From positions 5,734 through 69,733 of the forward strand of contig CALRBH010000002.1 in NCBI GenBank assembly GCA_943354165.1: a DNA stretch of 64,000 nucleotides, given 5' to 3'. This document shows positions 4,206 to 63,884 of the stretch, one piece after another; position 1 is the first letter of the stretch; each line of letters begins with the position of its first letter. This stretch comes from Candidatus Uhrbacteria bacterium RIFOXYB12_FULL_58_10 (lineage in GTDB: Bacteria; Patescibacteriota; Patescibacteriia; UBA9934; GWF2-40-263). Under the pieces are notes generated by a model. The model was given only the letters and a program-made list of their open reading frames with translations, was not told the DNA's origin and searched no databases. The position numbers and the translations under genes are program-made.

Positions 4206-4478
4206 ATGCCAAACATGGAAAACGCCAAGAAGGCGCACCGCCAGTCCCTGAAGCGTGCCCAGCGCAACCAGATTGCAAAGGACACCATTCACTCCCTGCG
4301 CGTCGCCTTCCGCAAGGCCATCGCCGCCAAGAAGACAGATGAGGCAGCAACGCTTGCTCGCTCCATCGGAAAGTCTCTCGATAAAGCCGTCGCGAAGGGA
4401 ATCATGAAGCTCAACACGGTGTCTCGCACCAAGAGCCGCATGATGAAGAACCTCAACGCCTCAGTGAAGACGAAGTAA
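4206..4478 (+). CDS. rpsT: 30S ribosomal protein S20
   Basis: 90-aa basic protein (MPNMENAKKAHRQSLKRAQRNQ ...) with S20-like sequence and size. Confidence 0.85.
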   Translation: MPNMENAKKAHRQSLKRAQRNQIAKDTIHSLRVAFRKAIAAKKTDEAATLARSIGKSLDKAVAKGIMKLNTVSRTKSRMMKNLNASVKTK

Positions 4479-4486
4479 ACAACAAA

Positions 4487-4568
4487 CTCCAAACGACAAA
4501 GAAAGACAGAAAACGACAAAAGATAAAATCATTTGTCGTTTTTTGTTTTCCCTTTTCTTTGTCGTTTG
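4487..4568. repeat. AACGACAAA-type imperfect palindrome (long hairpin) between convergent rpsT and holA
   Basis: aaacgacaaagaaagacagaaaacgacaaaag ... tgtcgttttttgttttcccttttctttgtcgtttg. A second member of the family is at 43225..43357. Confidence 0.6.
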
Positions 4569-18980: not shown

Positions 18981-19073
18981 AGTTAGTAGATAGTAGATAG
19001 TAGATAGTAGAAAAATAGTCATAGATCAGGTTTTTTGCCCTGACTACTAACTACTTACTACTGACTACTAACT
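18981..19073. repeat. TAG-rich palindromic repeat (TAGTAGATAGTAG family), locus A
   Basis: agttagtagatagtagatagtagatagtag ... ctgactactaactacttactactgactactaact: inverted arms with stop codons in all frames. Confidence 0.7.
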
Positions 19074-19505
19074 TTCAAACGATATCCACATTATACGACA
19101 CTATCTCAGAGAACGCTTGTGCTATCATGGGCGGGTTATGCGAAAGCTGGTGGGGATCTTCTTGATCGCATCTTTTTTAACCCTGGTGAGTTCCACTAAG
19201 GGGATGCCTGGCTGTGCGGCCAGCTCTTTTGTTCCAGCCTGTGCGGCTGAATCGGTCGGTATCGCAACGATCACTGCACCGGATCTCATTGCAGCGGAAC
19301 CCATCGCCTTCCTTACAAGAACATCGATCATTAACAAAGCGATCGCGTTCCCACGTCTCCTGCGCGCCCCAAAGCCTTCGACCGACGGCGCCCCCGGCAC
19401 CTGGCTCAAATCCCTCGACAAGTTCCCATCAAATCTCCTCCCCATGCACGACGCCTGATGTATTCCTCCAGATTTAATCATTTTAAAACCATTTGGGTTT
19501 GCAGA

Positions 19506-19589
19506 GTGGGCAAGGGTGGGCAGGGTGATGGAATATTTTTTTATAGAAAGATTTCCTACACCCTTGCAAACCCCGCCCACCCTTGCCCA
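19506..19589 (+). promoter_or_regulatory. long-stem hairpin (gtgggcaagggtgggc ... gcccacccttgcccac) in the dsbA-like 5' region
   Basis: A 16-bp perfect inverted repeat separated by about 45 nt of AT-rich loop, ending 17 nt before the ATG at 19606. Confidence 0.4.
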
Positions 19590-19605
19590 CCCCCTAACTT
19601 CCTTT

Positions 19606-34999: not shown

Positions 35000-35000
35000 T

Positions 35001-35082
35001 AGTTAGTAGATAGTAGTAAGTAGTTAGTAGATTTTCGTCGTCAGTCGACCCTACTAACTACTATCTACTTACTACTATCTAC
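35001..35082. repeat. TAG-rich palindromic repeat, locus B
   Basis: agttagtagatagtagtaagtagttagtag ... ctactaactactatctacttactactatctac, exactly filling the tig-nfo intergenic gap. Confidence 0.7.
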
Positions 35083-40120: not shown

Positions 40121-40235
40121 GAGTCAGTAGATAGTAGTAAGTAGTTAGTAGTATAACGAAAAACCGGTCAAAGCCGTGAGGCTAAAACCGGTTTTTTAGT
40201 AAATCTACTAACTACTATCTACTCACTACTAACTA
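40121..40235. repeat. TAG-rich palindromic repeat, locus C (with embedded terminator hairpin)
   Basis: cagtagatagtagtaagtagttagtagta ... aaaaccggtc-aaagccgtgaggctaa-aaccggtttttt ... ctactaactactatctactcactactaact. The PBP1A stop codon (TAG) lies in the right arm. Confidence 0.7.
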
Positions 40236-43224: not shown

Positions 43225-43357
43225 AAATGACGAAAACGACAAAAAACAAACGACAAACGACAAAGAAAAATGGAAAACGACAAACGTTTAAAATTTTCCT
43301 TCCTTTGTCGTTTCCTGCCTTTCTTTGTCGTTTGGGATTTATCGTTTGTCGTTTTCA
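43225..43357. repeat. AACGACAAA-type long imperfect palindrome, second locus
   Basis: aaaatgacgaaaacgacaaaaaacaaacgacaaacgacaaagaaaaatggaaaacgacaaacg ... ttcctttgtcgtttcctgcctttctttgtcgtttgggatttatcgtttgtcgttttcac. Sits in the divergent PBP1A / 3D-domain intergenic region. Confidence 0.65.
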
Positions 43358-43966: not shown

Positions 43967-43967
43967 G

Positions 43968-44000
43968 AAAAAAGCTCCTCATTTCTGGGGAGCTTTTTTG
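43968..44000. terminator. bidirectional intrinsic terminator (aaaaaagctcc-tcatttctg-gggagctttttt)
   Basis: Sits between the 3D-domain gene and tRNA-Cys. Confidence 0.6.
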
Positions 44001-44074
44001 GAGGCCGCGACCGGAGTTGAACCGGTGCATAGCGGTTTTGCAGACCGCCGCGTTAACCACTTCGCCACGCGGCC
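43999..44074 (-). tRNA. tRNA-Cys(GCA)
   Basis: The reverse complement is GGCCGCG...GCGGT-CTGCAAA-ACCGC...ACCGG-TTCAACT-CCGGT-CGCGGCC-T-CCA. Anticodon GCA with U73 discriminator (Cys identity). Confidence 0.85.
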
Positions 44075-44115
44075 ACGGCGGGGACCTTATCAAACCCCCC
44101 GCAGTCCTTCAAGGA

Positions 44116-44559
44116 TTACATCGCTTCACGGGCAAGTGTGGCGATATCAAGCTCGTCCATGTGCGACAGGTTCTTCGGAACTTCACCTTTGATACGAGCT
44201 TGTAGATCCGTGTGAAGCGCGGCCTTAAGCTCGTTCATGTTCTGCTGTGCGTCGCACAGCACAATCGACTCGAATTCGTCGTGGCGGAAACGGCGGAGAA
44301 GATCTTCGTTAATCTTGCGATGAAGCTCTGCACGAGTGAGATCATCTCGGTTGTCGTTACTTGAGGTCGATCGAACGTCGCCAGCCCCCGTCACGGAGTT
44401 CTGATGATCGCGACCAGGCTGTTCCTCTTCCTTGGAAGAGATGAACGCGAGCACTTCGACCTCGCTATTCGCGGCGCGGAGGAACTTTGCACGCTCATTT
44501 CCGGCGACAACGATCATGGTGTTGCTATCAAATGGGCGGACGGAGGAGGGGAGGGTCAT
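44116..44559 (-). CDS. hypothetical protein, possibly host-attachment/baeRF-like
   Basis: 147 aa. N-terminal MIVVAGNERAKFLRA resembles the xVLVADGSRARIF start of Host_attach-type proteins. Weak assignment. Confidence 0.4.
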   Translation of the reverse strand: MTLPSSVRPFDSNTMIVVAGNERAKFLRAANSEVEVLAFISSKEEEQPGRDHQNSVTGAGDVRSTSSNDNRDDLTRAELHRKINEDLLRRFRHDEFESIVLCDAQQNMNELKAALHTDLQARIKGEVPKNLSHMDELDIATLAREAM

Positions 44560-44566
44560 AAAAAGG

Positions 44567-44612
44567 GTCTGTTAGGGCGGTTAGGGTTGTAAGGGCGGTA
44601 AGGGGCTAAAAA
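44567..44612. repeat. GTWAGGG 9-bp tandem repeat (4-5 units), locus 1
   Basis: gttagggcg-gttagggtt-gtaagggcg-gtaagggg, upstream of a TATAAT box and the near-leaderless ATG of 44664. Confidence 0.6.
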
Positions 44613-44663
44613 CGATATTGCGAGTATAGCAGGCAGGTCGCGGTACCGCTATAATGCTCTCGT

Positions 44664-45239
44664 ATGAAGAAAAAAGACGGTTCCTTGCGGCTTCTCGTGG
44701 TCTCAAACATCCGCGAGATCGTGTTTGGACTTGAAGATTCTCTCGTGTCCACACTCGGAGCTCTTACCGGGATCGCTGCGGGTACGCAAAACGCCTACAT
44801 CGTCATTTTGTCCGGGCTCGTGATTGTCGTCGTTGAAGCGTTGTCGATGTCCGCCGGAAGTTATCTTTCTTCTAAGTCCGCCGATGAAGCCGAAGACGCA
44901 CTTCTTGCAGAAGAAGGGGGAAGGCCAGATAAATTTCGCGTGGAATTAAGGAAGCACCCAATCCGCGCCGGAGTCGTGATGGGTGTGTTCTATATTCTTG
45001 GCGGGTGTGTGCCACTCGCTCCGTACTTTTTAATGTCGCTTCAAGATGCATTACCAGTATCGGTTGTTCTGACTGCCGTCACATTATTTGGGCTCGGTGC
45101 CTGGAGCGCACAGTTCACAAAGCGCTCGCCAGGACGGAGCGGGGTAGAGATGATGATTGTGTCCCTCACCGCCGCATTCCTCGGGTATGTGGTCGGGTAT
45201 ATCGTCCAGCTGGCGTTTGGGGTAAGCGTCGCCGCGTAG
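44664..45239 (+). CDS. VIT1/CCC1-family (DUF125) membrane protein
   Basis: N-terminal IVFGLEDSLVSTLGALTGIAAG motif and multiple TM helices. Confidence 0.7.
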   Translation: MKKKDGSLRLLVVSNIREIVFGLEDSLVSTLGALTGIAAGTQNAYIVILSGLVIVVVEALSMSAGSYLSSKSADEAEDALLAEEGGRPDKFRVELRKHPIRAGVVMGVFYILGGCVPLAPYFLMSLQDALPVSVVLTAVTLFGLGAWSAQFTKRSPGRSGVEMMIVSLTAAFLGYVVGYIVQLAFGVSVAA

Positions 45240-45283
45240 AAAGCCTTGAAATATAGGCCAGTTTCTGATACCTTCCGCTGGTT

Positions 45284-46480
45284 ATGTCCCGCCAGGTTTA
45301 CCTCGATCACGCCTCCACGACCCCGCTTGATAAGCGGGTTCTTGAGGCAATGATGCCGTATCTGACGGAGCATTATGGCAACCCATCGAGTTTCCACTCC
45401 ATTGGGAAGGAAGCGAAGGATGCCATCGATGAAGCCCGTGCCAACATCGCCAAACTTCTCGTCGTTCGCCCAGATGAAATCCTGTTCACCTCCGGCGGAA
45501 CAGAAGCAGATAACATGGCGATCCTTGGATACGCTCGTGCAAATAAGGAGAAGGGAATGCACGTCATCATTGGTGCGTTCGAGCATCACGCGGTTTTGGA
45601 ATCCGCGATGCATCTTGAGCGCAAGGAAAATTTTTCCGTGACGTATCTCACTCCTGGTCGCGATGGAAGCATCACGCCAGAACAAGTCGTCGCTGCTCTC
45701 CGTGAAGATACGATTCTCGTTTCTGTGATGATGGCGAACAACGAGATCGGAACCATCGAACCGATCGCAGAAATTGTGAAGGCGGTGAAAGCGTCCAAGG
45801 TTCCAAAGACTCCACCGGTCTTCCACACCGATGCGTGTCAGGCCGCCGGCGTGCTCGACCTCGATGTGAGCAAACTTGGTGTCGACATGCTCGCGATGAA
45901 CGGCGGAAAAATTTATGGACCAAAGGGTGCAGGGTTCCTGTATGTGAAGCGCGGCATCAAGCTTCAGCCGCTCATGTTCGGCGGAAGTCAGGAGCGCGCG
46001 ATTCGTCCTGGTACTGAGAATGTGCCCGCAATCATTGGGCTTGCCTTGGCCTTCAAACTTGCTCAAGAGGAACGTAAGGAAGAAAACGAACGTCTTACTG
46101 TCTTGCGCGATCGTCTCATCAACGGCGTGTTGAAGACAATTACGAAGACGCGCCTCAACGGCCATGCGACCGATCGTCTTCCGAACAACGCAAACCTCTC
46201 CTTCATGGATATCGAAGGCGAAGCGCTCATCCTCTATCTCGACGCCGCGGGAATTTACACATCGACAGGGAGCGCGTGCACGAGTGCCTCGCTTGATCCA
46301 AGCCACGTGATCCTCTCACTCGGTCTTCCGTATGAAGTTGCACACGGATCGATCCGTTTCACTCTCGGTCGATCAACAACACAGGAAGACATCGACTACG
46401 TTTTGGAAACGCTTCCGCCGCTCGTCGCCAAGTTGCGTTCGCTGAGTCCGGTGAACGTGGACGCTAAGTATTTTGCGTAG
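45284..46480 (+). CDS. iscS: cysteine desulfurase (IscS/NifS family)
   Basis: PLP-binding SxHK-type region and catalytic Cys motif (TSTGSACTSAS). 398 aa. Confidence 0.9.
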   Translation: MSRQVYLDHASTTPLDKRVLEAMMPYLTEHYGNPSSFHSIGKEAKDAIDEARANIAKLLVVRPDEILFTSGGTEADNMAILGYARANKEKGMHVIIGAFEHHAVLESAMHLERKENFSVTYLTPGRDGSITPEQVVAALREDTILVSVMMANNEIGTIEPIAEIVKAVKASKVPKTPPVFHTDACQAAGVLDLDVSKLGVDMLAMNGGKIYGPKGAGFLYVKRGIKLQPLMFGGSQERAIRPGTENVPAIIGLALAFKLAQEERKEENERLTVLRDRLINGVLKTITKTRLNGHATDRLPNNANLSFMDIEGEALILYLDAAGIYTSTGSACTSASLDPSHVILSLGLPYEVAHGSIRFTLGRSTTQEDIDYVLETLPPLVAKLRSLSPVNVDAKYFA

Positions 46481-46555
46481 ATAGTAGTTAGTAGATAGTA
46501 GTTAGTAGAGTTGAACTACGAAAAACCTACTAACTACTTACTACTATCTACTAAC
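46478..46555. repeat. TAG-rich palindromic repeat, locus D
   Basis: tagatagtagttagtagatagtagttagtag ... ctactaactacttactactatctactaac. Begins at the iscS stop codon. Confidence 0.7.
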
Positions 46556-46569
46556 TGCGAACCCAACAT

Positions 46570-47513: not shown

Positions 47514-48617
47514 ATGCGTCTCGTCATCATCGGCGGGGGAATCGCTGGCGTAACTGCGGCTGAAGAGGTCCGCAAACTCGATTCTGACGCCGAGATCACC
47601 ATCCTGTCCGAAGAATTTCACCCGCTCTACAGCCGGGTCCTTTTACCTCATTTCATTAAAGGAAAGGTGTCTCGCGAGCGTGTTTTCCTTAAAAAGCCCG
47701 AATGGTATTCCGAGAAAAATATCGATTGGCAGCCGGGGGTCGTGGTGAAGTCTATCGATACGAACAACAAGTTTGTTCATACGTCCGAGGAACGCGAGAT
47801 CGAATACGACAAACTTCTCATCGTGACCGGCTGTGACGTCCGCACGATTGGCGAAGACGGAAGCAACGTGTCGTATTGGCGTACGCTCGATGACACCGAT
47901 CATCTTCTCAAGCTGATCGCTTCAAATCCGGCGAAGGCGACCGTCTTCGGCGGTGGATTCATGGCATGCGAATATGTGAATGCGTTCGCACATCATGGAG
48001 TGTCGACCTCCGTCCTGACACGAGGACCTTGGTTCTGGTCAAAAATTCTTTCGAAAGAATCTGGCACCCTCATCAACGCGCACCTCGCCGCGCGTGGTGT
48101 CGACGTAACTCCAAACGCCACCGAGCCAACCGTGATGGATGACAACACGATCTTCGGCATCGGCATCGGCATTCACCCAGAACTTTCGTTGATGCGCGAC
48201 GCGGGTATCGAAGTGAACGAGGGAGTGAAGACGAACGAGTATCTCGAAACGAACGTTCCCGACGTCTACGCCGCCGGCGACGTCGCTGAATTCATGGATG
48301 TGACCGCCGGCCGCCAGCGGGTCGTCGGTAACTACATGAACGCCCAAATGCAGGGTCGAGCTGTCGCTAAGATCATTTGCGGGGAAAAGGTACGGTTTGA
48401 GCTGGTTTCCTCATACGCGACCAATGCCTTGGGTCTGGAAATCATCTTTATTGGCGATACCGACCGAAATGCCGCCGATTCCGTCGAAGTTCAAGGAAGC
48501 GCCAGAGAAGGGGCGGTTTCGGAAAGGTTCTTCCGAGGAGGGAAGTTGGTGGGCGCTGTGCTCATAAATAAGAACCTGGAACGGAAGGTAATTACTGACG
48601 AAATCCGGGGAAGCTAG
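47514..48617 (+). CDS. FAD/NAD(P)-dependent pyridine-nucleotide-disulfide oxidoreductase (ferredoxin reductase-like)
   Basis: N-terminal Rossmann VIIGGGIAGVTAAEE. Second dinucleotide-binding segment. AAGDVAE near the C-terminus. Translationally adjacent to the ferredoxin gene. Confidence 0.8.
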   Translation: MRLVIIGGGIAGVTAAEEVRKLDSDAEITILSEEFHPLYSRVLLPHFIKGKVSRERVFLKKPEWYSEKNIDWQPGVVVKSIDTNNKFVHTSEEREIEYDKLLIVTGCDVRTIGEDGSNVSYWRTLDDTDHLLKLIASNPAKATVFGGGFMACEYVNAFAHHGVSTSVLTRGPWFWSKILSKESGTLINAHLAARGVDVTPNATEPTVMDDNTIFGIGIGIHPELSLMRDAGIEVNEGVKTNEYLETNVPDVYAAGDVAEFMDVTAGRQRVVGNYMNAQMQGRAVAKIICGEKVRFELVSSYATNALGLEIIFIGDTDRNAADSVEVQGSAREGAVSERFFRGGKLVGAVLINKNLERKVITDEIRGS

Positions 48618-48674
48618 GAGCTAGTATCTAGAAGCTAGATTTTCACTAGCTCCTAACTCCTAGCTTCTAGCTCC
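48613..48674. repeat. AGCTAG-type TAG-rich palindrome (variant of the TAG-repeat family), locus E
   Basis: gctaggagctagtatctagaagctag-attttca-ctagctcctaactcctagcttctagctcc. Starts in the stop codon of the oxidoreductase gene. Confidence 0.6.
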
Positions 48675-48814
48675 TATTTCCGCTATTCATAGCAAAATAA
48701 AGCGTCAACCCCCATTGACAAAGAGGGATTTTTGTGCTATAAATCTACGTTCGGAAGATTGGAATGTTTCCAGTCTTCCGCAACAATTTTCGTCAGACAA
48801 CCCAGGAGGAAGCT

Positions 48815-49973: not shown

Positions 49974-50069
49974 CTCCGCAGAGACGACGATCCTCGTCGT
50001 CTCTGCGGATGCCCCCAACCTCAATAGAGACGGCCTAATAAGCGTGCAGACGGTCATCCGTCTGTGCAC
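49974..50069 (+). other. two perfect GC-rich hairpins without T-runs (ccgcagagacgacg-atcc-tcgtcgtctctgcgg and gtgcagacgg-tcat-ccgtctgtgcac)
   Basis: Read directly. They lie between 48815..49951 and 50112..51140. Confidence 0.5.
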
Positions 50070-50111
50070 CAGTTCGGCTCTCAACGCAGCAACCAAGAAA
50101 GAAGGTACCTC

Positions 50112-51140
50112 GTGACCACTCCAGCGATCCCTCAAAACCAACCTGCTCCCGCCCTCCCGACGCCCCCGGTGGATCCCGCCGAAGCCTTGGCACAAGCCAT
50201 GGCCGAGGACAACACCGACGCGGCGGACGAAGCCGCCCTGCAAGCGCGGGTGGACAAGCACAACACCTGGTGGGGGCGTGCAAAGGCGGCGGGGATTTTC
50301 CTCGTCGTGCTGCCCCTCGTGATCGTCGCCGGCAGCCTCTGCCTTCTGGGCGGTGGCTGGCTCGCCATCCAGTTCGATTCTCCCATGGGGGGATCACTGG
50401 CGGCACTCCTCGGTGCGATCGGCATCATCGTTGCGATGGGCCCGCTCGCGTTGCTCCAGAATGTGGCGAATTTTGCCACGGCGATCTTCGACAACGTCGG
50501 ATGGCTGAAGGCCTTCAAGGACAAGGTCCCAGACCAGATCACCACGTTCGGGCGGATGTTCTCGATCTTCGCGGCGCTGATGGGACTTTTGACCATCATC
50601 CCCGCGTACCGGGCAAGTGCGCTCATCTGGCTCCACTTCCCGCTCTCGATCACACTGCTCGTAGTGTTCTACATGTTCGCCTTGAGAGAAGCGAAACGTG
50701 ATCCCGAGGACGAGCTGAGCAAAAACCTGGCAAGCAGTGGTCGCCTCATGGGCACCATCGCGAAGGTAGCGATCGTCGTGGCGGCTCTCTCAGCGATTAT
50801 CAACGTATCTCCCGAGGCGCGTGAAGTTCTGCTCGACCAGGGCGGTATCCTGCTCTTGGTCGCCATCGCTCTCATCTATGTCGCCGCAAAGACAGAGAAG
50901 ACGAAGATCACGGTCTTCTCTCTCCTCGGGGCTGCAGTGGCGTGTGGGCTCGCGGTGGTGATGGTGACTCGGGACCAGCCCAAGCACGCTCAACCCGCTG
51001 CGGTCGACTGGACCGTGATTGCCGAGCAAGCAGGGAAGTCGAAACCGCCGCGGTACGTCCCACAAGCTCCTTCCAGCACCAAACGGCCGCTCACCCGCAG
51101 TGAGTTCAAAGCGGAGTTCGACGCCATCGGCATCGAATAA
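50112..51140 (+). CDS. novel polytopic membrane protein (about 7 TM) with Pro-rich N-terminus
   Basis: GTG start after RBS gaaagaagg. Seven hydrophobic helices. GC-rich. No family recognised. Confidence 0.5.
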   Translation: MTTPAIPQNQPAPALPTPPVDPAEALAQAMAEDNTDAADEAALQARVDKHNTWWGRAKAAGIFLVVLPLVIVAGSLCLLGGGWLAIQFDSPMGGSLAALLGAIGIIVAMGPLALLQNVANFATAIFDNVGWLKAFKDKVPDQITTFGRMFSIFAALMGLLTIIPAYRASALIWLHFPLSITLLVVFYMFALREAKRDPEDELSKNLASSGRLMGTIAKVAIVVAALSAIINVSPEAREVLLDQGGILLLVAIALIYVAAKTEKTKITVFSLLGAAVACGLAVVMVTRDQPKHAQPAAVDWTVIAEQAGKSKPPRYVPQAPSSTKRPLTRSEFKAEFDAIGIE

Positions 51141-51196
51141 CGCCCACGTACGATAAACCCCCATCACATCTGTGAGTGGGGGTTTCGTCTTTTCGT

Positions 51197-51408
51197 GGGG
51201 CGGTTGGGTCTGTGGGGGCGGTAAGGGTGGTGAGGGTAGTAAGGGTTGTGAGGGCCGACTCTGCCCCTTACAGTCCATTACAGCCCTTACCGCCCTTACA
51301 ACCCATGAAACTGGCCAAAGGCCAGTTTCACTTAACTCAAGAATATGCTTAACCCAGCTATATATCGTGTCAACACCCCTTGACAAAAGTCTAAAAAAGT
51401 GGTATCTT
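51197..51408 (+). repeat. GTAAGGG/CCCTTAC palindromic repeat + small hairpin + TTGACA-N17-TATCTT promoter cassette, locus 2
   Basis: Seven GTNRGGGNN units (51197-51259) are followed by their inverted CCCTTAC units to 51307, then hairpin gaaactggcc-aaa-ggccagtttc, then a promoter at 51380-51408. A near-identical cassette lies at 63690-63884. Confidence 0.65.
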
Positions 51409-51519
51409 TATCCCGATGTCGAATGAAGCGTACGTGTGCGGATGGTGGGTATTTCTGCCATTTGCACCCGTACCGTTCCTTCGACAAGTACGTTGAAGCA
51501 ACTACAAGGAGTACGGCAG

Positions 51520-52200
51520 ATGAAAATTCTGATGATTCTCGCACTCGTTCTCACGTCGGCCTGTGCCACCGGCTTCGGCCTCGCCTTCGAGACCGATGAT
51601 CGCTACGCCGACTCCGTGAAGTCGGGCGAAGTGAAACGCGATGTGACCGGCGACACGTCCGATGGCGTCAGCACCGACACCACGCTCACCACCACGTTCA
51701 CCCCGGTCAAGGAATCCTCGCGGTGGAGCCTCTTGCTAAACACACCGGAGGGGATCGCCAAGATCTCGAACGCCGGTGCCGTGCGCGATGTCGCGCGAAA
51801 GGGTGACCCGGCCGTGAGCACCAACGACGGCGCCAACATCGCCACCAACGATGCGGCCGTCGGCGGAGGACTCTACGGCAGCGCGTACGGCGGCGGTGGA
51901 ACGAGCCGGCGTAAAGCCATGCTCCAAGCCAACGCAGCCCGCACTCTGCAGCTGCAACAACAGCAACCGTTTGTTCTCCCCACGAGCAGAATGGCTTCCC
52001 AGAAGGAAGTCGAAGTCGTGAAGGAAGACGTCGGCAAGCTGAAGAAAGGCATCAAAGTGATCGCGAAGCAGGTGGAGGAGCTGACCCCAGAAACGTCAGC
52101 CACTCCTCCCGCTCCCGCTCCGCCGCCGGCGCCCGTGACCAGCACGCCGCCGGACAAACCCAGCGGCAAACAACCGGGCGTTCCAGAAACGATCGACTAG
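51520..52200 (+). CDS. hypothetical lipoprotein (Gly/Ala/Pro-rich)
   Basis: RBS caaggag. Signal/lipobox MKILMILALVLTSAC. Pro-rich C-terminus. Confidence 0.5.
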   Translation: MKILMILALVLTSACATGFGLAFETDDRYADSVKSGEVKRDVTGDTSDGVSTDTTLTTTFTPVKESSRWSLLLNTPEGIAKISNAGAVRDVARKGDPAVSTNDGANIATNDAAVGGGLYGSAYGGGGTSRRKAMLQANAARTLQLQQQQPFVLPTSRMASQKEVEVVKEDVGKLKKGIKVIAKQVEELTPETSATPPAPAPPPAPVTSTPPDKPSGKQPGVPETID

Positions 52201-52310
52201 CTCGATCAGCGTCCATTCTCACAACTCTTTTCCCAGAGAGACTTCAATCTCTGGGCTTCCCGCAAGCTGCCGTGTATTTCGCACGGCCGCTTACGCAGAA
52301 GGACTCTCCC

Positions 52311-52793
52311 ATGAACAATCGCTTCTTTTCCCTCGTGTTCGTTCTCATCACCCTCACCTCGGCCTGCGCCAGCACCCAGAACCGCGTGCTGCAGCCCGAG
52401 TTCACCCTCCCGTCCTTCACCCTCGCGGCCTTCGCCGAAGGCTCCGACGTGCAGGCGGGGATCGGCGGCTGCACCCGCAACGGCCGCGGCCTCTGCGTGA
52501 CCTACGCAGCGAACAAGATCGACAACCATGACCTGCGCGATCTCCAGCAGATGTACCTCATCTGTGCCTACGATCCCGCTGACGGTAGCAAGATCGTGAC
52601 CGGCTCTGCCAACGGATGCATCCGGGCCTTCGACAAGATGTCCCCGATCTTCATCGACAATGTTCCATTGCGTGGTCAGGTCACCATCACTCTCGAGCAG
52701 GTCGTCTCCCTCCAGGAACCGCCCGTGATGCTCGCCCGCCGTACCTGCACGAAGGTCCCGGGTCCGTACGAGAACTTCATCAATTGCAACTAA
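52311..52793 (+). CDS. hypothetical Cys-containing lipoprotein
   Basis: Signal/lipobox MNNRFFSLVFVLITLTSAC shares the LTSAC lipobox with the preceding gene. Six further Cys residues. Confidence 0.5.
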   Translation: MNNRFFSLVFVLITLTSACASTQNRVLQPEFTLPSFTLAAFAEGSDVQAGIGGCTRNGRGLCVTYAANKIDNHDLRDLQQMYLICAYDPADGSKIVTGSANGCIRAFDKMSPIFIDNVPLRGQVTITLEQVVSLQEPPVMLARRTCTKVPGPYENFINCN

Positions 52794-52824
52794 ATGAAAA
52801 GAGGGCCAAACTGGCCCTCCACTG

Positions 52825-52856
52825 AACCTGACCACTCGGTCAGGTTTTCTGTTTGT
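52825..52856. terminator. intrinsic terminator (gaacctgacc-actcg-gtcaggttttc)
   Basis: Sits between convergent 52311..52793(+) and the pilin array(-). Confidence 0.55.
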
Positions 52857-52864
52857 ATTCTCAA

Positions 52865-53245
52865 TTAACCTGTTCCGGATGCCGTGGCCAGCGACGAAAC
52901 GACGAAGTTTGCGATGGCGTAGGCGGCGACAATGATCACGAGACCGATGATCGAGTTAGTGATGAGCTTCTTGGCCTGTTCCACCTTCTTTCCCTCACCC
53001 TGGTCTGTGAGGTAGAGGAAACCTGCGTAGACGATAATGACCACGAAGATGATCCCGAGAAGACCGAGGAAGACGTTAATAAAACGTCCGATCAGCTCTG
53101 GTAGCGATTGTGTGCCTACGTTAAGTTTTGTGGCATTAAGTGTGCCAACTGCATCATTAATACCCTGGGCGTGGGTAATAAGCGGCAGGAACGCAGCGCC
53201 TACAGCAGCAGAGACAGCACCGATACGAGCGGTAAGACGGTTCAT
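52865..53245 (-). CDS. VirB2/TrbC-like pilin paralog 1
   Basis: Signal peptide. Conserved core INVFLGLLGIIFVVIIVYAGFLYLTDQGEGKKVEQAKKLITNSIIGLVIIVAAYAIANF (TM-loop-TM with AKK motif). Confidence 0.65.
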   Translation of the reverse strand: MNRLTARIGAVSAAVGAAFLPLITHAQGINDAVGTLNATKLNVGTQSLPELIGRFINVFLGLLGIIFVVIIVYAGFLYLTDQGEGKKVEQAKKLITNSIIGLVIIVAAYAIANFVVSSLATASGTG

Positions 53246-53285
53246 AGATATGGAGATAATTAGTCGATTGGTAGTATATCACGCT

Positions 53286-53726
53286 TTAGGCGGAAGGGAG
53301 CTCATCCGGGAGTGGAGCCCCTGGCCCGGTCTGATTCTGGGAACAGACCGGATCCAGCGGATTGTCTGCACAGATTCTCGCCCGTTCGGCTTCAACCGCT
53401 CCGCGATCCTCGAAGATCCCAAAGATGAGGTTCAAGAGGATGAAGTTTGTCAGGGCGTAGGCGCTGATCACGATGACGATCCCGATGACCGCATTACTGA
53501 TCGTTCCCTTGGCTTTTTTGATCTGCTCCTCGTTTCCCTGAGAGGTAAGATACAGGAAACCCGCGTACACGAGCAAGATCACCAGGGCAAGACCCAGCAT
53601 CCCGAGGACGATGTCGATGAGATATCCGATGCTTTCGGCAATATTGGGAGCGGTGGATCCAGTTGCAAACCCGCCCGTACCTGCGGCGCTGTCCAGACTA
53701 GATTGAAACGAAGATAAGGCGCTCAT
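53286..53726 (-). CDS. VirB2/TrbC-like pilin paralog 2
   Basis: Same core (IDIVLGMLGLALVILLVYAGFLYLTSQGNEEQIKKAKGTISNAVIGIVIVISAYALTNF). Divergent N- and C-termini. Confidence 0.65.
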   Translation of the reverse strand: MSALSSFQSSLDSAAGTGGFATGSTAPNIAESIGYLIDIVLGMLGLALVILLVYAGFLYLTSQGNEEQIKKAKGTISNAVIGIVIVISAYALTNFILLNLIFGIFEDRGAVEAERARICADNPLDPVCSQNQTGPGAPLPDELPSA

Positions 53727-53735
53727 AGGGAGGGA

Positions 53736-54182
53736 TTATGAACCGGACAAGAATACCAATTGCGGAAGGAAGAATGAAACGATCGTGAAGGCGGACACGA
53801 CGATCACGATACCAATAACTGCATTTACCAACGCACCTTTTGCTTTTTTGACCCGCTCAACATCTCCCTGGGCCGTGAGGTACAGAATTCCTCCCCAAAC
53901 AAACAGGACGACGAGGATAAGTCCGGATAAGGCGAGCACAGCATTCACAATCTGACCAATAAGCGGAGCGAGTTTTTGTGGTTCACGGCCAAATCCCGCC
54001 GCATTTCCGGCGTCCTGTAGCCCACCAAGTGTACTCTGCGCCCGCGCGATGGGCGGAAACGCCAATAACCAAAGACTCACAGTCGCTATCCAGGAGGAGT
54101 TTCGCATAACGTTTAAGGGCGCCCCGAGAGGCGCCCTTATGCGCCATGCCCCCTCGCCGTCCCGATTCCCCTCCTTCGCCAA
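53736..54182 (-). CDS. VirB2/TrbC-like pilin paralog 3
   Basis: Core IVNAVLALSGLILVVLFVWGGILYLTAQGDVERVKKAKGALVNAVIGIVIVVSAF. Likely start at internal Met 54107 (MRNSSWIATVSLWLLAFPPIARA). Confidence 0.6.
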   Translation of the reverse strand: MAKEGNRDGEGAWRIRAPLGAPLNVMRNSSWIATVSLWLLAFPPIARAQSTLGGLQDAGNAAGFGREPQKLAPLIGQIVNAVLALSGLILVVLFVWGGILYLTAQGDVERVKKAKGALVNAVIGIVIVVSAFTIVSFFLPQLVFLSGS

Positions 54183-54223
54183 GGAGGGGTTAGGGGTGGT
54201 TGCCGAGAGGTTGGCCTGTCTGT

Positions 54224-54655
54224 TTAGCTGGTAGCGGTCGCAAGGCGGCCGATCACGAAGGTAGCGATGGCGAAGCTTGAGAGGATGATGGCGAGCCCGA
54301 TCACACCCGAGATCATGAGCTTCTTAGCCTGCTTGACCTTGTCGTCATTGCCGCCGGACGTCATCCAGAGGAAACCTCCGTAAAGGATGATGACCACTGC
54401 GACGATACCGAGGAAGCTGAGAGCCGTGTTGATAATGCTGGCAATGGTGGTGGTGAGTTCCTGATTGCCGAGACCCGAGGCTCCGGCAAAAGCATCTTTG
54501 CCTGATCCTGAGTCTCCGCCGAAGAAGAAGTCCAGGTCGCTGCCTGCTGCTGGTGCTGGTGTCTGTGCCTTCGCAAATGGAGCGAGGGCGAACGTGGTTG
54601 CGGTGGCGCCTGCGGTTGCTGACCAGCCGACAAGCTTGGCAATGGAGAGCTTCAT
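54224..54655 (-). CDS. VirB2/TrbC-like pilin paralog 4
   Basis: Signal peptide MKLSIAKLVGWSATAGATA. Core IINTALSFLGIVAVVIILYGGFLWMTSGGNDDKVKQAKKLMISGVIGLAIILSSFAIATF. Confidence 0.65.
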   Translation of the reverse strand: MKLSIAKLVGWSATAGATATTFALAPFAKAQTPAPAAGSDLDFFFGGDSGSGKDAFAGASGLGNQELTTTIASIINTALSFLGIVAVVIILYGGFLWMTSGGNDDKVKQAKKLMISGVIGLAIILSSFAIATFVIGRLATATS

Positions 54656-54680
54656 AAGTTATGCCCTTGTGGGCTTATGG

Positions 54681-55049
54681 TTAAACGCTGCCCGTTGTGA
54701 TGGCGCCTACCAGCGCATTCACAAGAGCGTACGCGGTGAATAATACCACAATGCCTATGGAGGCCCAAATCAACGTATCCTTTCCTTTCTGAATCATCTT
54801 CGGATTCCCCTGGGAGAGGATCCACATGAACCCGCCATAGATGAAGGCGAGCAGGGCGAGGGCCCCGGAGAAGCCGAGGAGAGCCGCTACGATCTGTCCG
54901 ATGATTACGTTGATGTCGGATGTGCCTTTTGGATTAGCGGGCGTTCCACCGATCGGATTTATGAGCGTGGCGGCATGTACGACCGCGACGAGGAGAAAAC
55001 TCGCGAGCACGGTTCCGCCAATGACGAAGTGTTTTTTAGAGATTTTCAT
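54681..55049 (-). CDS. VirB2/TrbC-like pilin paralog 5
   Basis: Start at MKISKKHFVIGGTVLASFLLVAVVHA. Core IIGQIVAALLGFSGALALLAFIYGGFMWILSQGNPKMIQKGKDTLIWASIGIVVLFTAYALVN. Confidence 0.6.
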   Translation of the reverse strand: MKISKKHFVIGGTVLASFLLVAVVHAATLINPIGGTPANPKGTSDINVIIGQIVAALLGFSGALALLAFIYGGFMWILSQGNPKMIQKGKDTLIWASIGIVVLFTAYALVNALVGAITTGSV

Positions 55050-55057
55050 AGGTCGGC

Positions 55058-55651
55058 TTATGGAGTGGGGGCAATAAGTTCTACACACTCTCCGTTCGCG
55101 TTTTTTGCGCAGAATACTCTCCTAAGCGTCGTGATGGCCGCAAAGGCGATGAAGACGATCACCAGCCCGATCGTTGCAATCCTCAACCCATCCTTTCCTT
55201 TCTTGATGTTCTCATCAAATCCGCCAGGAAGGTATGCGGCGCCAATCCATCGGACTCCGGAAATAGTGTACATGAGGAAGACGAGCGCGCCCACAATTCC
55301 GAGAATGAACACGCCGACATTGTTCACGACCGTCATGACGTCCGTCAGTTGGCAATCGCCGGTGTTGTAACACTTTGAAGCGATGTCCTGCATGAATGGA
55401 CCAACATCCGCGTGGCTGCATGTGTCCTCTTTGCAGACACCAGTGCCTTTTGGGGTAGCTGGAGTGGTTGTAGATCCTGGTGTAGTGGAGGCGGGAGCAC
55501 AAGGTGATCCTGTGTTACTACAGCATGCAAGGCATTCTTGTCGTTGTCGACTTGCATCCGGCAGAGGCGTGCAAAATTGCTGGACGCAACTTTCTGCGGA
55601 GGCGACAAATGGAGATACAAGGAAAACAAGTACGATGAACAAAGATCTCAT
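55058..55651 (-). CDS. VirB2/TrbC-like pilin paralog 6 with Cys-rich N-terminal extension
   Basis: Signal peptide MRSLFIVLVFLVSPFVASA, then about 70 aa with 12 Cys. Conserved core VFILGIVGALVFLMYTISGVRWIGA ... IKKGKDGLRIATIGLVIVFIAFAAI. Confidence 0.6.
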   Translation of the reverse strand: MRSLFIVLVFLVSPFVASAESCVQQFCTPLPDASRQRQECLACCSNTGSPCAPASTTPGSTTTPATPKGTGVCKEDTCSHADVGPFMQDIASKCYNTGDCQLTDVMTVVNNVGVFILGIVGALVFLMYTISGVRWIGAAYLPGGFDENIKKGKDGLRIATIGLVIVFIAFAAITTLRRVFCAKNANGECVELIAPTP

Positions 55652-63672: not shown

Positions 63673-63689
63673 CCAGCCGACGAGGGGTC

Positions 63690-63884
63690 GTAAGGGCGGT
63701 AAGGGCGGTAAGGTTCGTACGGCAAGCAACTGTCTGTCCCCTTACAGTCCATTACTACCCTTACCACCCTTACAGCCCCTTGAACCGGCCAAAAGGCCGG
63801 TTTACGCGTATACGTGTTTACCGCTATATCCAGCCAAATAACTTGCCAACAACTCTTGACAAAAGGTCAAAATTGTGGTATAAA
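63690..63884 (+). repeat. GTAAGGG/CCCTTAC palindrome + hairpin + TTGACA-N17-TATAAA promoter cassette, locus 3
   Basis: gtaagggcg-gtaagggcg-gtaagg ... ccccttacagtcc-attactaccc-ttaccaccc-ttacagcccc; hairpin gaaccggcc-aaaa-ggccggttt; promoter at 63856-63884. This parallels 51197-51408. Confidence 0.65.

What the first reader, a model, noticed from the sequence alone, without database searches (positions are those of the whole stretch)
51197..51408. Telomere-like GTAAGGG/CCCTTAC palindromic repeats fused to a conserved promoter, present at three loci
At 51197-51408 and 63690-63884 an almost identical composite occurs. It consists of 3-7 tandem GTNAGGGNN units followed directly by their inverted complement (giving a long hairpin, or alternatively a G-quadruplex / i-motif-prone duplex with at least 7 GGG tracts), then a short hairpin (gaaactggcc..ggccagtttc / gaaccggcc..ggccggttt), then a near-consensus promoter (cttgacaaaag..aaaa..gtggtat). 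Each cassette follows a large membrane-protein gene and drives a lipoprotein-like gene. A third partial copy (GTTAGGG x4) precedes the VIT-family gene at 44567-44612. This is a dispersed regulatory/repeat cassette that may couple termination and re-initiation. It could also mark paralogous gene duplication or recombination hot spots.
Basis: seen in the sequence. Interest (0 to 1): 0.6.

Follow-up and report, generated by a model that had tools for sequence, protein, structure and literature searches.

The report
Tandem-repeat hairpin elements between genes
The GTAAGGG "telomere-like" palindromes are real gene-less copies of a hairpin element built from short tandem repeats; the same kind of element carries a small four-helix-bundle gene in ribosomal RNA inserts and many bacterial genomes, and the promoter next to it looks like an ordinary promoter of this genome.

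Summary
Cassettes A (51197-51408) and B (63684-63884) share a long imperfect palindrome of 9-nt GGTAAGGGN units, a short GC hairpin and a TTGACA-N17-TATNNN promoter. A single-armed array lies at 44563-44605.

They are not a special telomere/G4-promoter device. The window holds ten such tandem-repeat palindromes with other units (GTAGNTA, AACGACA, GNAGCTA, GGGCAAGGGT). A third GTAAGGG-type copy lies 6.5 kb beyond the window end. Its arms are homologous to those of A and B, and its loop carries a 23S_rRNA_IVP / TIGR02436 four-helix-bundle (S23p) gene.

In 71 metagenomic loci with such genes:
- 86% have inverted flanks, against 5% of shifted controls.
- 87% of flanks are tandem arrays with periods of 7, 8 or 10 nt.
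- The 5' arm is G-rich in 51 of 55 loci.

A genuine 23S rRNA insert and cultured cyanobacteria, Gemmatirosa and Bernardetia show the same anatomy.

A and B are therefore STRR-like, IVS-like hairpin elements without the gene, probably neutral or selfish. They may act as RNase III or insulating stems. The promoter resembles the genome's generic strong sigma-70 type. The canonical G4 motif is absent from B. The flanking genes are not paralogues. Whether the RNA is processed and whether the element moves remain untested.

The parts
51156..51195 (+). Intrinsic-terminator-like hairpin plus U-rich tail ending the upstream membrane-protein gene (50064-51140). It is not part of the repeat but defines the element's position.
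   Evidence: Fold -32.8 kcal/mol, z -5.7, followed by UUUCGUCUUUU. The simple terminator scan did not call it.
51197..51256 (+). Cassette A, G-rich left arm: about 6-7 units of 9 nt (GGTAAGGGN, GGTGAGGGN and degenerate GGTTGGGTC)
   Evidence: G-C = +30 and 5 stop triplets.
51264..51304 (+). Cassette A, C-rich right arm (CCCCTTACAG TCCATTACAG CCCTTACCG CCCTTACAA CCC), complementary to the left arm
   Evidence: (I15)
51307..51329 (+). Cassette A, short GC hairpin GAAACTGGCC-AAA-GGCCAGTTTC
   Evidence: Folded. It aligns with B's hairpin and shows compensatory differences.
51380..51408 (+). Sigma-70-type promoter-like site TTGACA-17-TATCTT with TG (extended -10); probably the promoter of gene 51520-52200
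   Evidence: 10 of 12 matches, TG present
63684..63722 (+). Cassette B, G-rich left arm (GGGGTC GTAAGGGCG GTAAGGGCG GTAAGGTTC GTACGG)
63738..63779 (+). Cassette B, C-rich right arm (CCCCTTACAG TCCATTACTA CCCTTACCA CCCTTACAG CCCC)
63783..63802 (+). Cassette B, short GC hairpin AACCGGCC-AAAA-GGCCGGTT
63856..63884 (+). Promoter-like site TTGACA-17-TATAAA upstream of the gene starting at 63927
   Evidence: The stricter scan did not call it because the last base of the -10 is A.
44563..44605 (+). Single-armed array (GGGTCTG TTAGGGCG GTTAGGGTT GTAAGGGCG GTAAGGGG) between divergent genes, 4-5 nt from the start codon of the baeRF-family gene
   Evidence: No hairpin (z about 0).
4469..4563 (.). Sibling tandem-repeat palindrome, AACGACA-type units
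   Evidence: I4, I9; fold -35.3 kcal/mol, z -6.6
18981..19073 (.). Sibling palindrome, GTAGNTA 7-mers, between divergent genes
   Evidence: z -5.1
19495..19592 (.). Sibling palindrome, GGGCAAGGGT 9-10-mers
   Evidence: z -6.6
35000..35082 (.). Sibling palindrome, GTAGNTA 7-mers. It fills the whole 85-nt gap between the stop codon at 34997-34999 and the ATG at 35085.
   Evidence: z -6.1
40122..40235 (.). Sibling palindrome, GTAGNTA 7-mers, between convergent genes, with a central A5-stem-T6 hairpin
   Evidence: z -9.9
43230..43356 (.). Sibling palindrome, AACGACA 7-mers, between divergent genes
   Evidence: z -7.8
46476..46559 (.). Sibling palindrome, GTAGNTA 7-mers, between the NifS-like and NifU-like genes. 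The upstream stop codon lies in the first unit.
   Evidence: z -7.2
48610..48676 (.). Sibling palindrome, GNAGCTA 7-mers, followed by a TTGACA-17-TATAAA site at 48715-48743
   Evidence: z -5.0

Best explanation
Cassettes A and B are gene-less copies of an inverted tandem-repeat hairpin element. Each has a G/purine-rich array of short units, a loop, and the complementary C-rich array.

This is the same kind of structure as:
- the STRR hairpins of cyanobacteria;
- the inverted GGGAATC arrays of Xanthomonas;
- the stems of S23p-type intervening sequences (IVS) of 23S rRNA.

A third copy of the same GTAAGGG family lies 6.5 kb right of the window end (L114 6237-6725). Its loop carries the four-helix-bundle (S23p / 23S_rRNA_IVP) gene that typifies those elements.

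Shown:
- the anatomy of A and B;
- homology of the arms of A, B and C;
- the general association of four-helix-bundle (4HB) genes with such arms;
- the conserved G-first polarity of the arms;
- unit-number variation between near-identical copies.

Inferred:
- The elements are neutral or selfish passengers of intergenic DNA. They spread or are copied within a genome as sequence families and grow or shrink by slippage.
- When read through by RNA polymerase, each folds into a roughly 40-bp imperfect stem that brings its two flanks together. It then behaves as an IVS does in rRNA: a substrate for RNase III and/or a 3'-end stabilising, insulating hairpin.
- The G-first arm supplies stop codons to ribosomes coming from either side.

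The TTGACA-N17-TATNNN site after A and B is most simply the downstream gene's own housekeeping promoter. It may have been copied along with the element, but it is not demonstrably part of it.
For: The class in the window:
- Ten tandem-repeat palindromes in 64 kb, each folding with z between -5 and -9.9.

The third copy (C) and homology of A, B and C:
- A, B and C right arms are 77% identical, with the same unit order including the odd TCCATTAC unit, and a short hairpin with an AAA loop at the same offset. The left arms also align.
- The loop ORF of C matches PF05635 (E 3.7e-36), TIGR02436 (E 5e-34) and PDB 2GSC XCC0516 (E 5e-22).

4HB genes in metagenomes (71 loci):
- Upstream flank against reverse-complemented downstream flank scores a median 43, versus 19 for shifted controls. 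61 of 71 exceed the 95th percentile of controls.
- 124 of 142 flanks carry tandem arrays versus 36 of 216 controls; periods are 7, 8, 10 and their multiples.
- Collapsed to 24 protein clusters, 20 have inverted flanks.

Other settings with the same anatomy:
- A genuine bacterial LSU rRNA insert (L169).
- 5 of 6 annotated examples from Nostoc, Picosynechococcus, Pseudanabaena, Gemmatirosa and Bernardetia.
- All four 4HB genes in the genome-contig loci.

Polarity:
- 5' arm G>C in 51 of 55 loci, p 2e-11.
- 17 versus 3 by protein cluster, p 0.003.
- 23 of 25 with non-zero skew (one tie) among 26 gene-less palindromes from diverse genomes.
- Purine-rich left arm in 10 of 10 window palindromes.

Dynamics:
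- L162 and L166 are identical except for a 20-nt indel equal to two units.

Literature:
- Coxiella IVS: S23p ORF in the loop, a 28-bp stem cut by RNase III, and tandem GACAGAT heptamers whose number varies between strains (PMC4990558).
- STRR 7-bp hairpins between operon genes, function unknown (PMC2670836).
- Xanthomonas GGGAATC arrays, 70-75 of them as inverted pairs (PMC4692102). That paper's own supplementary table places array #15 on the start codon of XCC0516.
Against: - No transcript or cleavage data exist for this organism, so RNA folding, RNase III cutting and insulation are all inference.
- Mismatches between arms show no preference for G.U pairs on the sense strand (131 versus 118). 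There is therefore no sequence signature of selection on the RNA fold rather than on the DNA.
- A and C sit behind separate terminator-like hairpins, so they may rarely be transcribed.
- No empty site, target duplication or mobility enzyme was found. 'Derived from gene-bearing copies' cannot be told apart from 'the gene inserts into pre-existing hairpins'.
- Only about 70 kb of the genome was available. No four-helix-bundle gene with GTAGNTA or AACGACA arms was seen.
- The 71 metagenomic loci represent one subfamily of PF05635 and many are related to each other.
Confidence: 0.6

Rival explanations
1. A host-adaptive 'terminate and restart' module. The long palindrome plus the short hairpin stop or insulate transcription from the upstream gene, and the attached conserved promoter restarts it. 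The whole module has been duplicated to regulate two genes.
For: - The order gene - hairpins - promoter - gene holds at A, B, the 48610 palindrome, and the Peribacteria locus L054.
- A-B similarity runs from the arms through the short hairpin (z 8.3), and the promoter 29-mers agree at 14 of 21 free positions.
- The palindrome at 40122-40235 between convergent genes contains a bidirectional terminator-like core.
Against: - The long palindromes have no U tract, and A has its own terminator-like hairpin upstream.
- Sibling palindromes fill gaps inside likely operons with no room for a promoter (35000-35082; nifS-nifU 46476-46559), where termination would silence the downstream gene.
- Others lie between divergent genes, where there is nothing to terminate.
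- Promoter similarity is within the range of unrelated strong promoters in this window.
- Copy C has no promoter after its right arm.
Confidence: 0.15
2. A G-quadruplex / i-motif switch. The G3 tracts of the left arm, and those of the complement of the right arm, fold into four-stranded structures that pause polymerases or regulate the adjacent promoter.
For: - A's left arm, the single array at 44565-44605, and C's left arm each match G3+N1-7 repeated four times.
- Oligonucleotides of the related GGGAATC and GGGGATT repeats form G4 in vitro (PMC4692102, abstract).
Against: - B has no canonical G4 motif on either strand, even with loops of up to 12 nt.
- The complementary arm competes through a hairpin of -70 to -80 kcal/mol.
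- Sibling palindromes of identical architecture (GTAGNTA, AACGACA, GNAGCTA) and many arms around four-helix-bundle genes (GGAGTTA, CAGAAGA, GAGTACT, GTGATTA) lack G tracts.
Confidence: 0.05
3. A DNA-level (or RNA-level) protein-binding array. The repeated units are iterated binding sites, for instance for the pentameric four-helix-bundle protein itself. Binding drives copying, expansion or recombination of the element, or organises the chromosome.
For: - Units repeat at fixed periods (7, 8, 9 or 10 nt), with unit sequences specific to each lineage and co-varying with the associated gene.
- There is no G.U strand asymmetry. This fits maintenance at the DNA level.
- Single-armed arrays exist (44563-44605; L009, L023, L038).
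- By my own knowledge, not tested here, the related Avd protein is a basic pentamer that binds nucleic acid.
Against: - Most palindromes in this window have no four-helix-bundle gene nearby.
- Several unit families coexist in one genome, but only one such gene was seen in about 70 kb.
- The periods are not a fixed multiple of the helical repeat.
- No binding data exist.
Confidence: 0.12
4. A mobile promoter. The copied unit is palindrome + short hairpin + outward-facing promoter, and its spread rewires expression of unrelated downstream genes.
For: - The flanking genes of A and B are unrelated.
- About 190 nt are shared up to the -10 element, and similarity stops exactly there.
Against: - The 50 nt between the short hairpin and the -35 are barely similar (z 2.1; 97 of 2000 shuffles do as well).
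- Promoter similarity is explained by the genome's consensus.
- Copy C and the other eight palindromes carry no such promoter, apart from a generic one at 48715.
- Only two instances exist.
Confidence: 0.08

Closest known systems
S23p-type intervening sequences (IVS) of 23S rRNA (Leptospira, Coxiella burnetii; PMC4990558)
   Same: - Long terminal inverted repeats form a stem.
- The arms are made of short tandem units. Examples are Coxiella GACAGAT with copy number varying among strains, and the LSU rRNA insert L169 found here.
- The loop can carry a four-helix-bundle (PF05635) ORF, as in the sibling copy C.
- The element extends a helix and leaves the flanks juxtaposed.
   Different: - A and B lie between protein-coding genes, not in rRNA.
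- They have no ORF, and their loops are 7-15 nt.
- Their units are 9 nt.
- RNase III cutting is shown for Coxiella but is untested here.
STRR (short tandemly repeated repetitive) sequences of heterocystous cyanobacteria
   Same: - Intergenic tandem short units that form hairpins between genes of one operon (hupS-hupL). Their function is unknown; transcript stability or translational coupling has been proposed (PMC2670836).
- By title only, they are also found inside RNase P RNA (Vioque 1997, cited in PMC2858038).
- The window's 7-mer palindromes between nifS and nifU look the same.
   Different: - STRRs were described as 7-bp units in cyanobacteria.
- The organism here is probably a Patescibacteria/CPR bacterium, and the focal units are 9 nt.
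- No paper in the searchable library links STRRs to four-helix-bundle genes.
G-rich heptamer repeats GGGAATC (Xanthomonas) and GGGGA(C/T)T (Nostoc) (Rehm et al. 2015, PMC4692102)
   Same: - Abundant intergenic G-rich tandem units, typically about 4 per array.
- 70-75 arrays per Xanthomonas genome occur as convergent inverted pairs.
- They are close to stop or start codons and are mostly transcribed.
- That paper's supplementary table places one array on the start codon of XCC0516, the S23p protein of PDB 2GSC.
   Different: - The authors interpret them as G4-forming repeats and make no link to S23p genes.
- Here B lacks a canonical G4 motif, and the sibling families are not G-rich.
REP/BIME elements and MITEs
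   Same: Short, dispersed, intergenic, palindromic families within one genome. They are often found after stop codons and may stabilise mRNA 3' ends.
   Different: - REPs are single 20-40-nt palindromes of one consensus and are tied to RAYT transposases.
- MITEs have terminal inverted repeats around an unrelated core, plus target duplications.
- Here the whole arm is a tandem array whose unit differs between families. No RAYT or target duplication was seen (RAYT was not searched for systematically).
Diversity-generating retroelement accessory protein Avd
   Same: The loop ORF of copy C belongs to the same four-helix-bundle superfamily (weak PF22296 and NF033474 hits).
   Different: Scores are far below the family cut-offs (27 versus 40 and 80 bits). 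No reverse transcriptase or template/variable repeats lie in the 10.5-kb locus L114.

Membership tests
STRR-like / inverted short-tandem-repeat hairpins | Arms are head-to-tail arrays of a short unit (6-10 nt) | tested here: met
   TRF finds period 9 with 2.4-4.3 copies in each arm of A and B. The sibling palindromes have period 7.
STRR-like / inverted short-tandem-repeat hairpins | Two arrays in inverted orientation that can pair into a hairpin | tested here: met
   Folds of -69 to -82 kcal/mol with z about -7; inverted repeat I15
STRR-like / inverted short-tandem-repeat hairpins | Intergenic, many copies per genome | tested here: inconclusive
   All copies are intergenic. There are 3.5 GTAAGGG-type copies and 10-11 of all types in about 70 kb. 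The whole genome was not available.
S23p-type 23S rRNA intervening sequence | Inserted in a helix of 23S rRNA | tested here: not met
   No rRNA in the window. A and B lie between protein-coding genes.
S23p-type 23S rRNA intervening sequence | Terminal inverted repeats forming a long stem | tested here: met
S23p-type 23S rRNA intervening sequence | Loop encodes a PF05635 / TIGR02436 four-helix-bundle protein | tested here: not met
   The loops of A and B are 7 and 15 nt. No such ORF exists anywhere in the window. The feature is met only in the homologous copy C outside the window.
S23p-type 23S rRNA intervening sequence | Excised by RNase III | not testable with these tools
   Needs an RNase III assay or transcript end mapping
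Rho-independent (intrinsic) terminator | GC-rich stem-loop directly followed by a U tract | tested here: not met
   The scan finds no terminator-like site in 50900-51700, and none at the B cassette in 63300-64000 (one site lies inside the downstream gene at 63943). The long palindromes are followed by AUGAAAC and UUGAACC. The short hairpins are followed by only UUU(C/A).
Sigma-70-type promoter | TTGACA and TATAAT-like hexamers 16-18 nt apart | tested here: met
   A matches 10 of 12 positions with an extended-10 TG. B is TTGACA-17-TATAAA by regex but fails the stricter rule. The start site is not testable.
G-quadruplex-forming repeat | At least four G3 tracts separated by loops of 1-7 nt | tested here: inconclusive
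   Met in A's left arm, the 44565 array and C's left arm. Not met in B on either strand, even with loops up to 12 nt.
Telomere repeat | Array at the end of a linear replicon | tested here: not met
   All arrays are internal and flanked by genes on both sides. Sequence continues beyond B for 6.5 kb.
MITE / REP | Target-site duplication or an associated RAYT/transposase | tested here: inconclusive
   Reading the flanks of A, B and C shows no direct repeat. Transposases were not searched for systematically.
Diversity-generating retroelement | Avd with reverse transcriptase and template/variable repeats | tested here: not met
   The Avd models score 27 bits against cut-offs of 40 and 80. No RT domain is among the genes called in L114.

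The most novel reading that the evidence does not exclude
Three things described separately may be one widespread element class: STRR hairpins (1990s), G-rich heptamer 'G4' repeats of Xanthomonas and Nostoc (2015), and S23p ORF-bearing intervening sequences of 23S rRNA (1993-2016).

The class would be a hairpin of inverted short tandem repeats with a fixed G-first polarity. Its loop may carry a four-helix-bundle gene. It colonises helices of stable RNAs, gaps inside operons (including cas operons) and ordinary intergenic DNA across at least five phyla.

In this probable CPR genome, gene-less copies have multiplied to about one per 6 kb. The four-helix-bundle protein would then be the element's own factor, acting on the repeat arms for mobility, for protection, or for processing.
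Probability: 0.4. Interest if true: 0.75.

Novelty: new variant of a known kind. Interest (0 to 1): 0.6.

Why it matters
- The purpose and origin of STRR-type repeats and of the ORFs inside rRNA intervening sequences have been open for about thirty years. PF05635/TIGR02436 is a very common family whose function outside diversity-generating retroelements is unknown.
- If tandem-repeat hairpins and four-helix-bundle genes are two halves of one element, both questions become testable. One can ask whether the protein binds or processes its own arms and whether the arms are cut by RNase III. One can also ask why the G-rich arm always comes first.
- For genome annotation, the result explains a recurrent source of assembly breaks. 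It also explains 'telomere-like' or 'G4' motifs in bacterial intergenic DNA.
- It warns against reading each such hairpin as a terminator or a regulatory switch.
- For small CPR genomes, about 1.5% of the sequence spent on such hairpins is itself notable.

Tried and rejected
It was useful only for the CPR, Gemmatimonadales and Bacteroidota loci.
2. Taxonomy from cluster names or record titles failed. The only indication is that the best named ATPase homologues are Patescibacteria.
3. The five-sequence protein alignment A2 was too diverse for the search for related loci. The three-sequence alignment A3 worked.
4. The G.U versus A.C mismatch asymmetry between arms, used as a test for selection on the sense RNA fold, gave 131 versus 118, so no signal.
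5. The closest relatives found via the ATPase (about 47% identity; L195 and L196, 22 kb each) contain no tandem-repeat palindromes. No orthologous 'empty site' comparison was possible.
6. A viral-contig scan for the distinctive right arm found nothing.
7. PADLOC gave no hit for the four-helix-bundle protein.
8. Rfam has no family at gathering score. At relaxed threshold only far-sub-threshold miRNA-precursor models match, which reflects a generic long hairpin.
9. The 'conserved promoter' idea was tested against 18 other promoter-like 29-mers and rejected as evidence of common descent.
10. Paralogy of the flanking genes was rejected.
11. The G4 motif as common denominator was rejected.
Full report

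Yes. The sequence at 51197-51408 and at 63684-63884 has the described order. First comes a G-rich array of 9-nt units (GGTAAGGGN and GGTGAGGGN). Next come a short loop and the complementary C-rich array. A short GC hairpin follows (GAAACTGGCC-AAA-GGCCAGTTTC in A, AACCGGCC-AAAA-GGCCGGTT in B). About 50 nt further on lies TTGACA-17 nt-TATCTT (A) or TATAAA (B).

- GTNAGGG occurs 35 times in the window against 21.5 +/- 4.6 in shuffles. Sixteen hits lie in the three named clusters.
- The right arms of A and B differ at only 4 of 41 positions.
- Either strand folds into a long imperfect hairpin of -69 to -82 kcal/mol, with z about -7.
- The third locus (44563-44605) is a single arm of four units. 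It does not fold and lies 4-5 nt from the start codon of the divergent baeRF-family gene.
- Independent Logan contigs of the same sample reproduce A and B at 100% identity, so this is not an assembly artefact.

**2. The wider context in the window**

Tandem Repeats Finder and the inverted-repeat search show that GTAAGGG is only one of several unit types built the same way.

| Unit type | Positions |
|---|---|
| GTAGNTA 7-mers | 18981-19073, 35000-35082, 40122-40235, 46476-46559 |
| AACGACA 7-mers | 4469-4563, 43230-43356 |
| GNAGCTA 7-mers | 48610-48676 |
| GGGCAAGGGT | 19495-19592 |

All fold as long hairpins with z from -5 to -9.9. That makes ten palindromes in 64 kb.

They occur between convergent, divergent and co-directional genes. 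Some fill the whole gap between two genes of a likely operon. Examples are 35000-35082, and 46476-46559 between the NifS-like and NifU-like genes. In five cases the stop codon of the incoming gene lies in, or within 5 nt of, the first unit.

Any explanation of A and B must also fit these siblings. That already argues against G-quadruplexes, telomere-like function or a dedicated terminator-promoter device as the common principle.

**3. The link to a gene**

A Logan contig (L114) extends 6.5 kb past the window end. At L114 6237-6290 and 6682-6725 lies a third pair of GTAAGGG-type arms.

- The right arm (CCCTTACCA TCCATTACCA CCCTTACAA CCCTCACCG CCC) aligns with those of A and B at 77% identity. 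The unit order is the same, including the odd TCCATTAC unit. It is again followed by a short hairpin with an AAA loop. The left arms align too.
- Here the arms are 390 nt apart. The loop encodes, on the minus strand, a 128-aa protein that matches:
  - PF05635 23S_rRNA_IVP (E 3.7e-36);
  - TIGR02436 'four helix bundle protein' (E 5e-34);
  - the solved Xanthomonas protein XCC0516, PDB 2GSC (E 5e-22).
- No such ORF exists inside the window.

A and B are therefore gene-less members of a family that has a gene-bearing member nearby.

**4. Is the link general?**

The genome-contig loci contained four genes of this family. All four are flanked by inverted tandem arrays: Peregrinibacteria L015, Gemmatimonadales L007, Prolixibacteraceae L024 and Bacteroidia L025.

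A peptide-pattern scan of metagenome contigs gave 80 further loci. The scan takes no account of flanking DNA.

- In the 71 loci with enough flank, 230 nt upstream were aligned against the reverse complement of 240 nt downstream. The median score is 43, versus 19 for pairs shifted by 600-900 nt. 61 of 71 exceed the 95th percentile of controls.
- 124 of 142 flanks carry a tandem array against 36 of 216 control flanks. Periods are 7 (42 flanks), 8, 10 (21 flanks) and their multiples.
- Unit sequences differ from lineage to lineage: GGAGTTA, GACGGTAAGG, GGCGGCGAAG, GGACGGAA, CAGAAGA, GGTCTAGG, TAGGGTT, GAGTACT and others.
- After collapsing to 24 protein clusters at 60% identity, 20 still show inverted flanks.
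- One locus, L169, is a genuine bacterial LSU rRNA gene (Rfam 1954 bits). Its insert has exactly this anatomy.
- Five of six annotated examples from cultured organisms show it as well:
  - Nostoc punctiforme;
  - Picosynechococcus, between cas10 and cmr3;
  - Pseudanabaena, between cas6 and cas4;
  - Gemmatirosa;
  - Bernardetia.

Caveat: the sample covers one subfamily of PF05635, and many loci are related to each other.

**5. A conserved polarity**

A palindrome reads alike on both strands, but it can be 'G-arm first' or 'C-arm first'. G-first predominates everywhere:

- The arm 5' of the four-helix-bundle gene is G>C in 51 of 55 loci (p 2e-11). It is purine-rich in 46 of 54. It holds 92 stop triplets against 39 in the other arm.
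- By protein cluster the split is 17 versus 3 (p 0.003).
- Among 26 gene-less palindromes in 868 kb of diverse genomes, the left arm is G>C in 23, G<C in 2 and tied in 1.
- All ten window palindromes have a purine-rich left arm, and eight of them have G>C.

So the polarity is a property of the hairpin, not just of a ribosome-binding site for the loop gene. G-first means that a transcript from either side meets the stop-containing, purine-rich arm first. The C-rich arm then emerges when its partner is already available to pair with it.

Whether this serves to stop ribosomes, to avoid an exposed C-rich Rho-loading site, or something else is my speculation.

**6. Dynamics**

- L162 and L166 are identical over 850 nt except for a 20-nt indel equal to two units. 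This is the behaviour reported for the heptamers of the Coxiella IVS.
- Gene-less palindromes are rare around the metagenomic four-helix-bundle genes: 3 in 206 kb. They are absent from 45 kb of the nearest relatives found (about 47% ATPase identity). This window has one per 6.4 kb. The organism is therefore unusually rich in them.
- It is probably a Patescibacteria (CPR) member. The best named ATPase homologues are CPR. Very similar GTAAGGG arrays occur in Peregrinibacteria, Peribacteria and 'Altimarinota' MAGs. I could not confirm the taxon.

**7. The promoter and the short hairpin**

- The A-B similarity is strong through the arms and the short hairpin (z 8.3).
- It is weak between the hairpin and the -35 (z 2.1; 97 of 2000 shuffles do as well).
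- It is high again in the 29-nt promoter (one of 2000 shuffles does as well).
- It is absent after the -10.

However, the window has 26 TTGAC-N16-18-TANNN[T/A] sites, most of them without palindromes. They share an extended consensus: TTGACAAA, an A/T-rich spacer, and TGnTAT. Among 153 pairs of such 29-mers, A-B agree at 14 of 21 free positions. An unrelated pair reaches 15, and 48715/B reaches 13.

The promoter is therefore best read as this genome's ordinary strong promoter. Co-duplication with the element cannot be excluded, but it is not shown. The flanking genes are unrelated.

The short hairpin is present at the same offset in A, B and C with different stem sequences. It is probably part of the element.

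A and C sit directly after separate terminator-like hairpins with U-rich tails. That is the 'safe' zone between a terminator and the next promoter.

**8. How it most likely works**

Shown:
- the anatomy;
- homology of A, B and C;
- the association with four-helix-bundle genes;
- the polarity;
- unit-number variation.

Inferred by analogy with IVS elements: in Coxiella a 28-bp stem formed by the terminal inverted repeats is cut by RNase III and the S23p ORF lies in the loop (PMC4990558). When transcribed, the arms here would pair and bring the flanks together. That leaves neighbouring genes or RNA helices undisturbed. The stem would then be processed by RNase III or would serve as a stabilising, insulating 3' hairpin.

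This would explain two things. The elements are tolerated inside operons, rRNA and cas loci. And stop and start codons sit at the base of the stem.

Against an RNA-only view: arm mismatches show no excess of G.U-compatible changes on the sense strand (131 versus 118). A DNA-level role or a protein-binding role therefore stays open.

I put 0.6 on the identification (an STRR/IVS-like hairpin element, gene-less copy). I put roughly half of that on the RNase III/insulator mechanism.

**9. Comparison with what is known**

Three literatures describe parts of this:

- **STRR sequences of cyanobacteria.** These are 7-bp repeats that form hairpins between operon genes. Their function is unknown (PMC2670836). 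They also occur inside RNase P RNA (Vioque 1997, title only).
- **GGGAATC and GGGGA(C/T)T repeats of Xanthomonas and Nostoc.** They were interpreted as G4 elements, with 70-75 inverted pairs per Xanthomonas genome (PMC4692102).
- **S23p-bearing IVS of 23S rRNA** (PMC4990558).

None of the papers in the searchable library connects the repeats with the four-helix-bundle gene family. Yet the Xanthomonas paper's own supplementary table puts repeat #15 on the start codon of XCC0516.

A and B fail two defining features of an IVS: they are not in rRNA and they have no ORF. They are not cyanobacterial 7-mers either. I therefore file them as a new variant of a known kind.

The unifying reading is given in the novel case. 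It is the part that would interest specialists. The library does not cover subscription journals, so prior description cannot be excluded.

**10. Verdict**

The finding is real but re-interpreted. It is a gene-less tandem-repeat hairpin element next to an ordinary promoter, not a telomere-like or G4 regulatory cassette. Interest is 0.6. That score rests mainly on the cross-phylum association with four-helix-bundle genes and on the conserved G-first polarity that the follow-up uncovered.

Noticed in passing
window 4469-4563, 18981-19073, 19495-19592, 35000-35082, 40122-40235, 43230-43356, 46476-46559, 48610-48676: Eight further tandem-repeat palindromes with other units (GTAGNTA, AACGACA, GNAGCTA, GGGCAAGGGT). 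The 7-mer TAG-type arms put stop codons in all three frames for ribosomes arriving from either side. Several overlap or abut the stop codon of the incoming gene.
   Followed up: yes
L114 6237-6725 (6.5 kb right of the window end; L114 coordinate = window coordinate - 59529): A third GTAAGGG-type arm pair enclosing a PF05635/TIGR02436 four-helix-bundle gene on the minus strand. The ORF's last ~20 codons (QPNPLQPLPPSPPSQPKTA) are read from the repeat arm. The stop codon of the neighbouring 204-aa gene lies in the other arm.
   Followed up: yes
L199 (Pseudanabaena galeata plasmid) and L200 (Picosynechococcus PCC 7003 plasmid): Annotated four-helix-bundle genes with tandem-heptamer arms sit inside CRISPR-cas operons, between cas6 and cas4 and between cas10/cmr2 and cmr3.
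   Followed up: partly
window 43325-46506, 4581, 51165 (ends of Logan contigs L001, L197, L204): The independent Logan assembly of the same run breaks at or next to the tandem-repeat palindromes (inside 43230-43356 and 46476-46559, just after 4469-4563, just before A). These hairpins therefore fragment short-read assemblies.
   Followed up: partly
window 51409-51519: The 111-nt leader between promoter A and the ATG at 51520 folds into a strong extended hairpin (-45.7 kcal/mol, z -4.5). It has no Rfam match at gathering score and may be a regulatory leader.
   Followed up: partly
window 44651-44664: A perfect TATAAT lies only 7 nt before the ATG of the VIT-family gene (44664-45239). This suggests a leaderless or nearly leaderless mRNA.
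   Followed up: no
window 52206-55651 (minus strand; L204 1701-4036): A run of six small paralogous genes carries PF18895 T4SS_pilin / weak TrbC hits, immediately downstream of the gene served by promoter A.
   Followed up: no
window 44116-44559 (minus strand): This gene belongs to the bacterial archaeo-eukaryotic release factor family 12 / Host_attach (PF18856, E 4e-17). Its start codon abuts the single-armed GTTAGGG array. Several CPR MAG loci (L009, L023, L038, L015) likewise have a gene start directly beside a G-rich array.
   Followed up: partly
L162 versus L166 (metagenome contigs): The two loci are 100% identical over 850 nt except for a 20-nt indel equal to two GGTAAGGGGC units in the upstream arm. 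This is direct evidence of unit-number change.
   Followed up: yes
window 16711-16817: Two adjacent non-tandem inverted repeats (16711-16755 and 16754-16817) lie directly next to tRNA-His (16818-16892). Their nature was not examined.
   Followed up: no
L084, L070, L090, L022, L081, L082 (Gemmatimonadales MAGs): These loci hold many gene-less GGCGGTAAG/GTAAGGGCG 9-mer palindromes very like those of the window. L084 3311-3399 even aligns to cassette B at 78% identity, in a phylum unrelated to CPR.
   Followed up: partly
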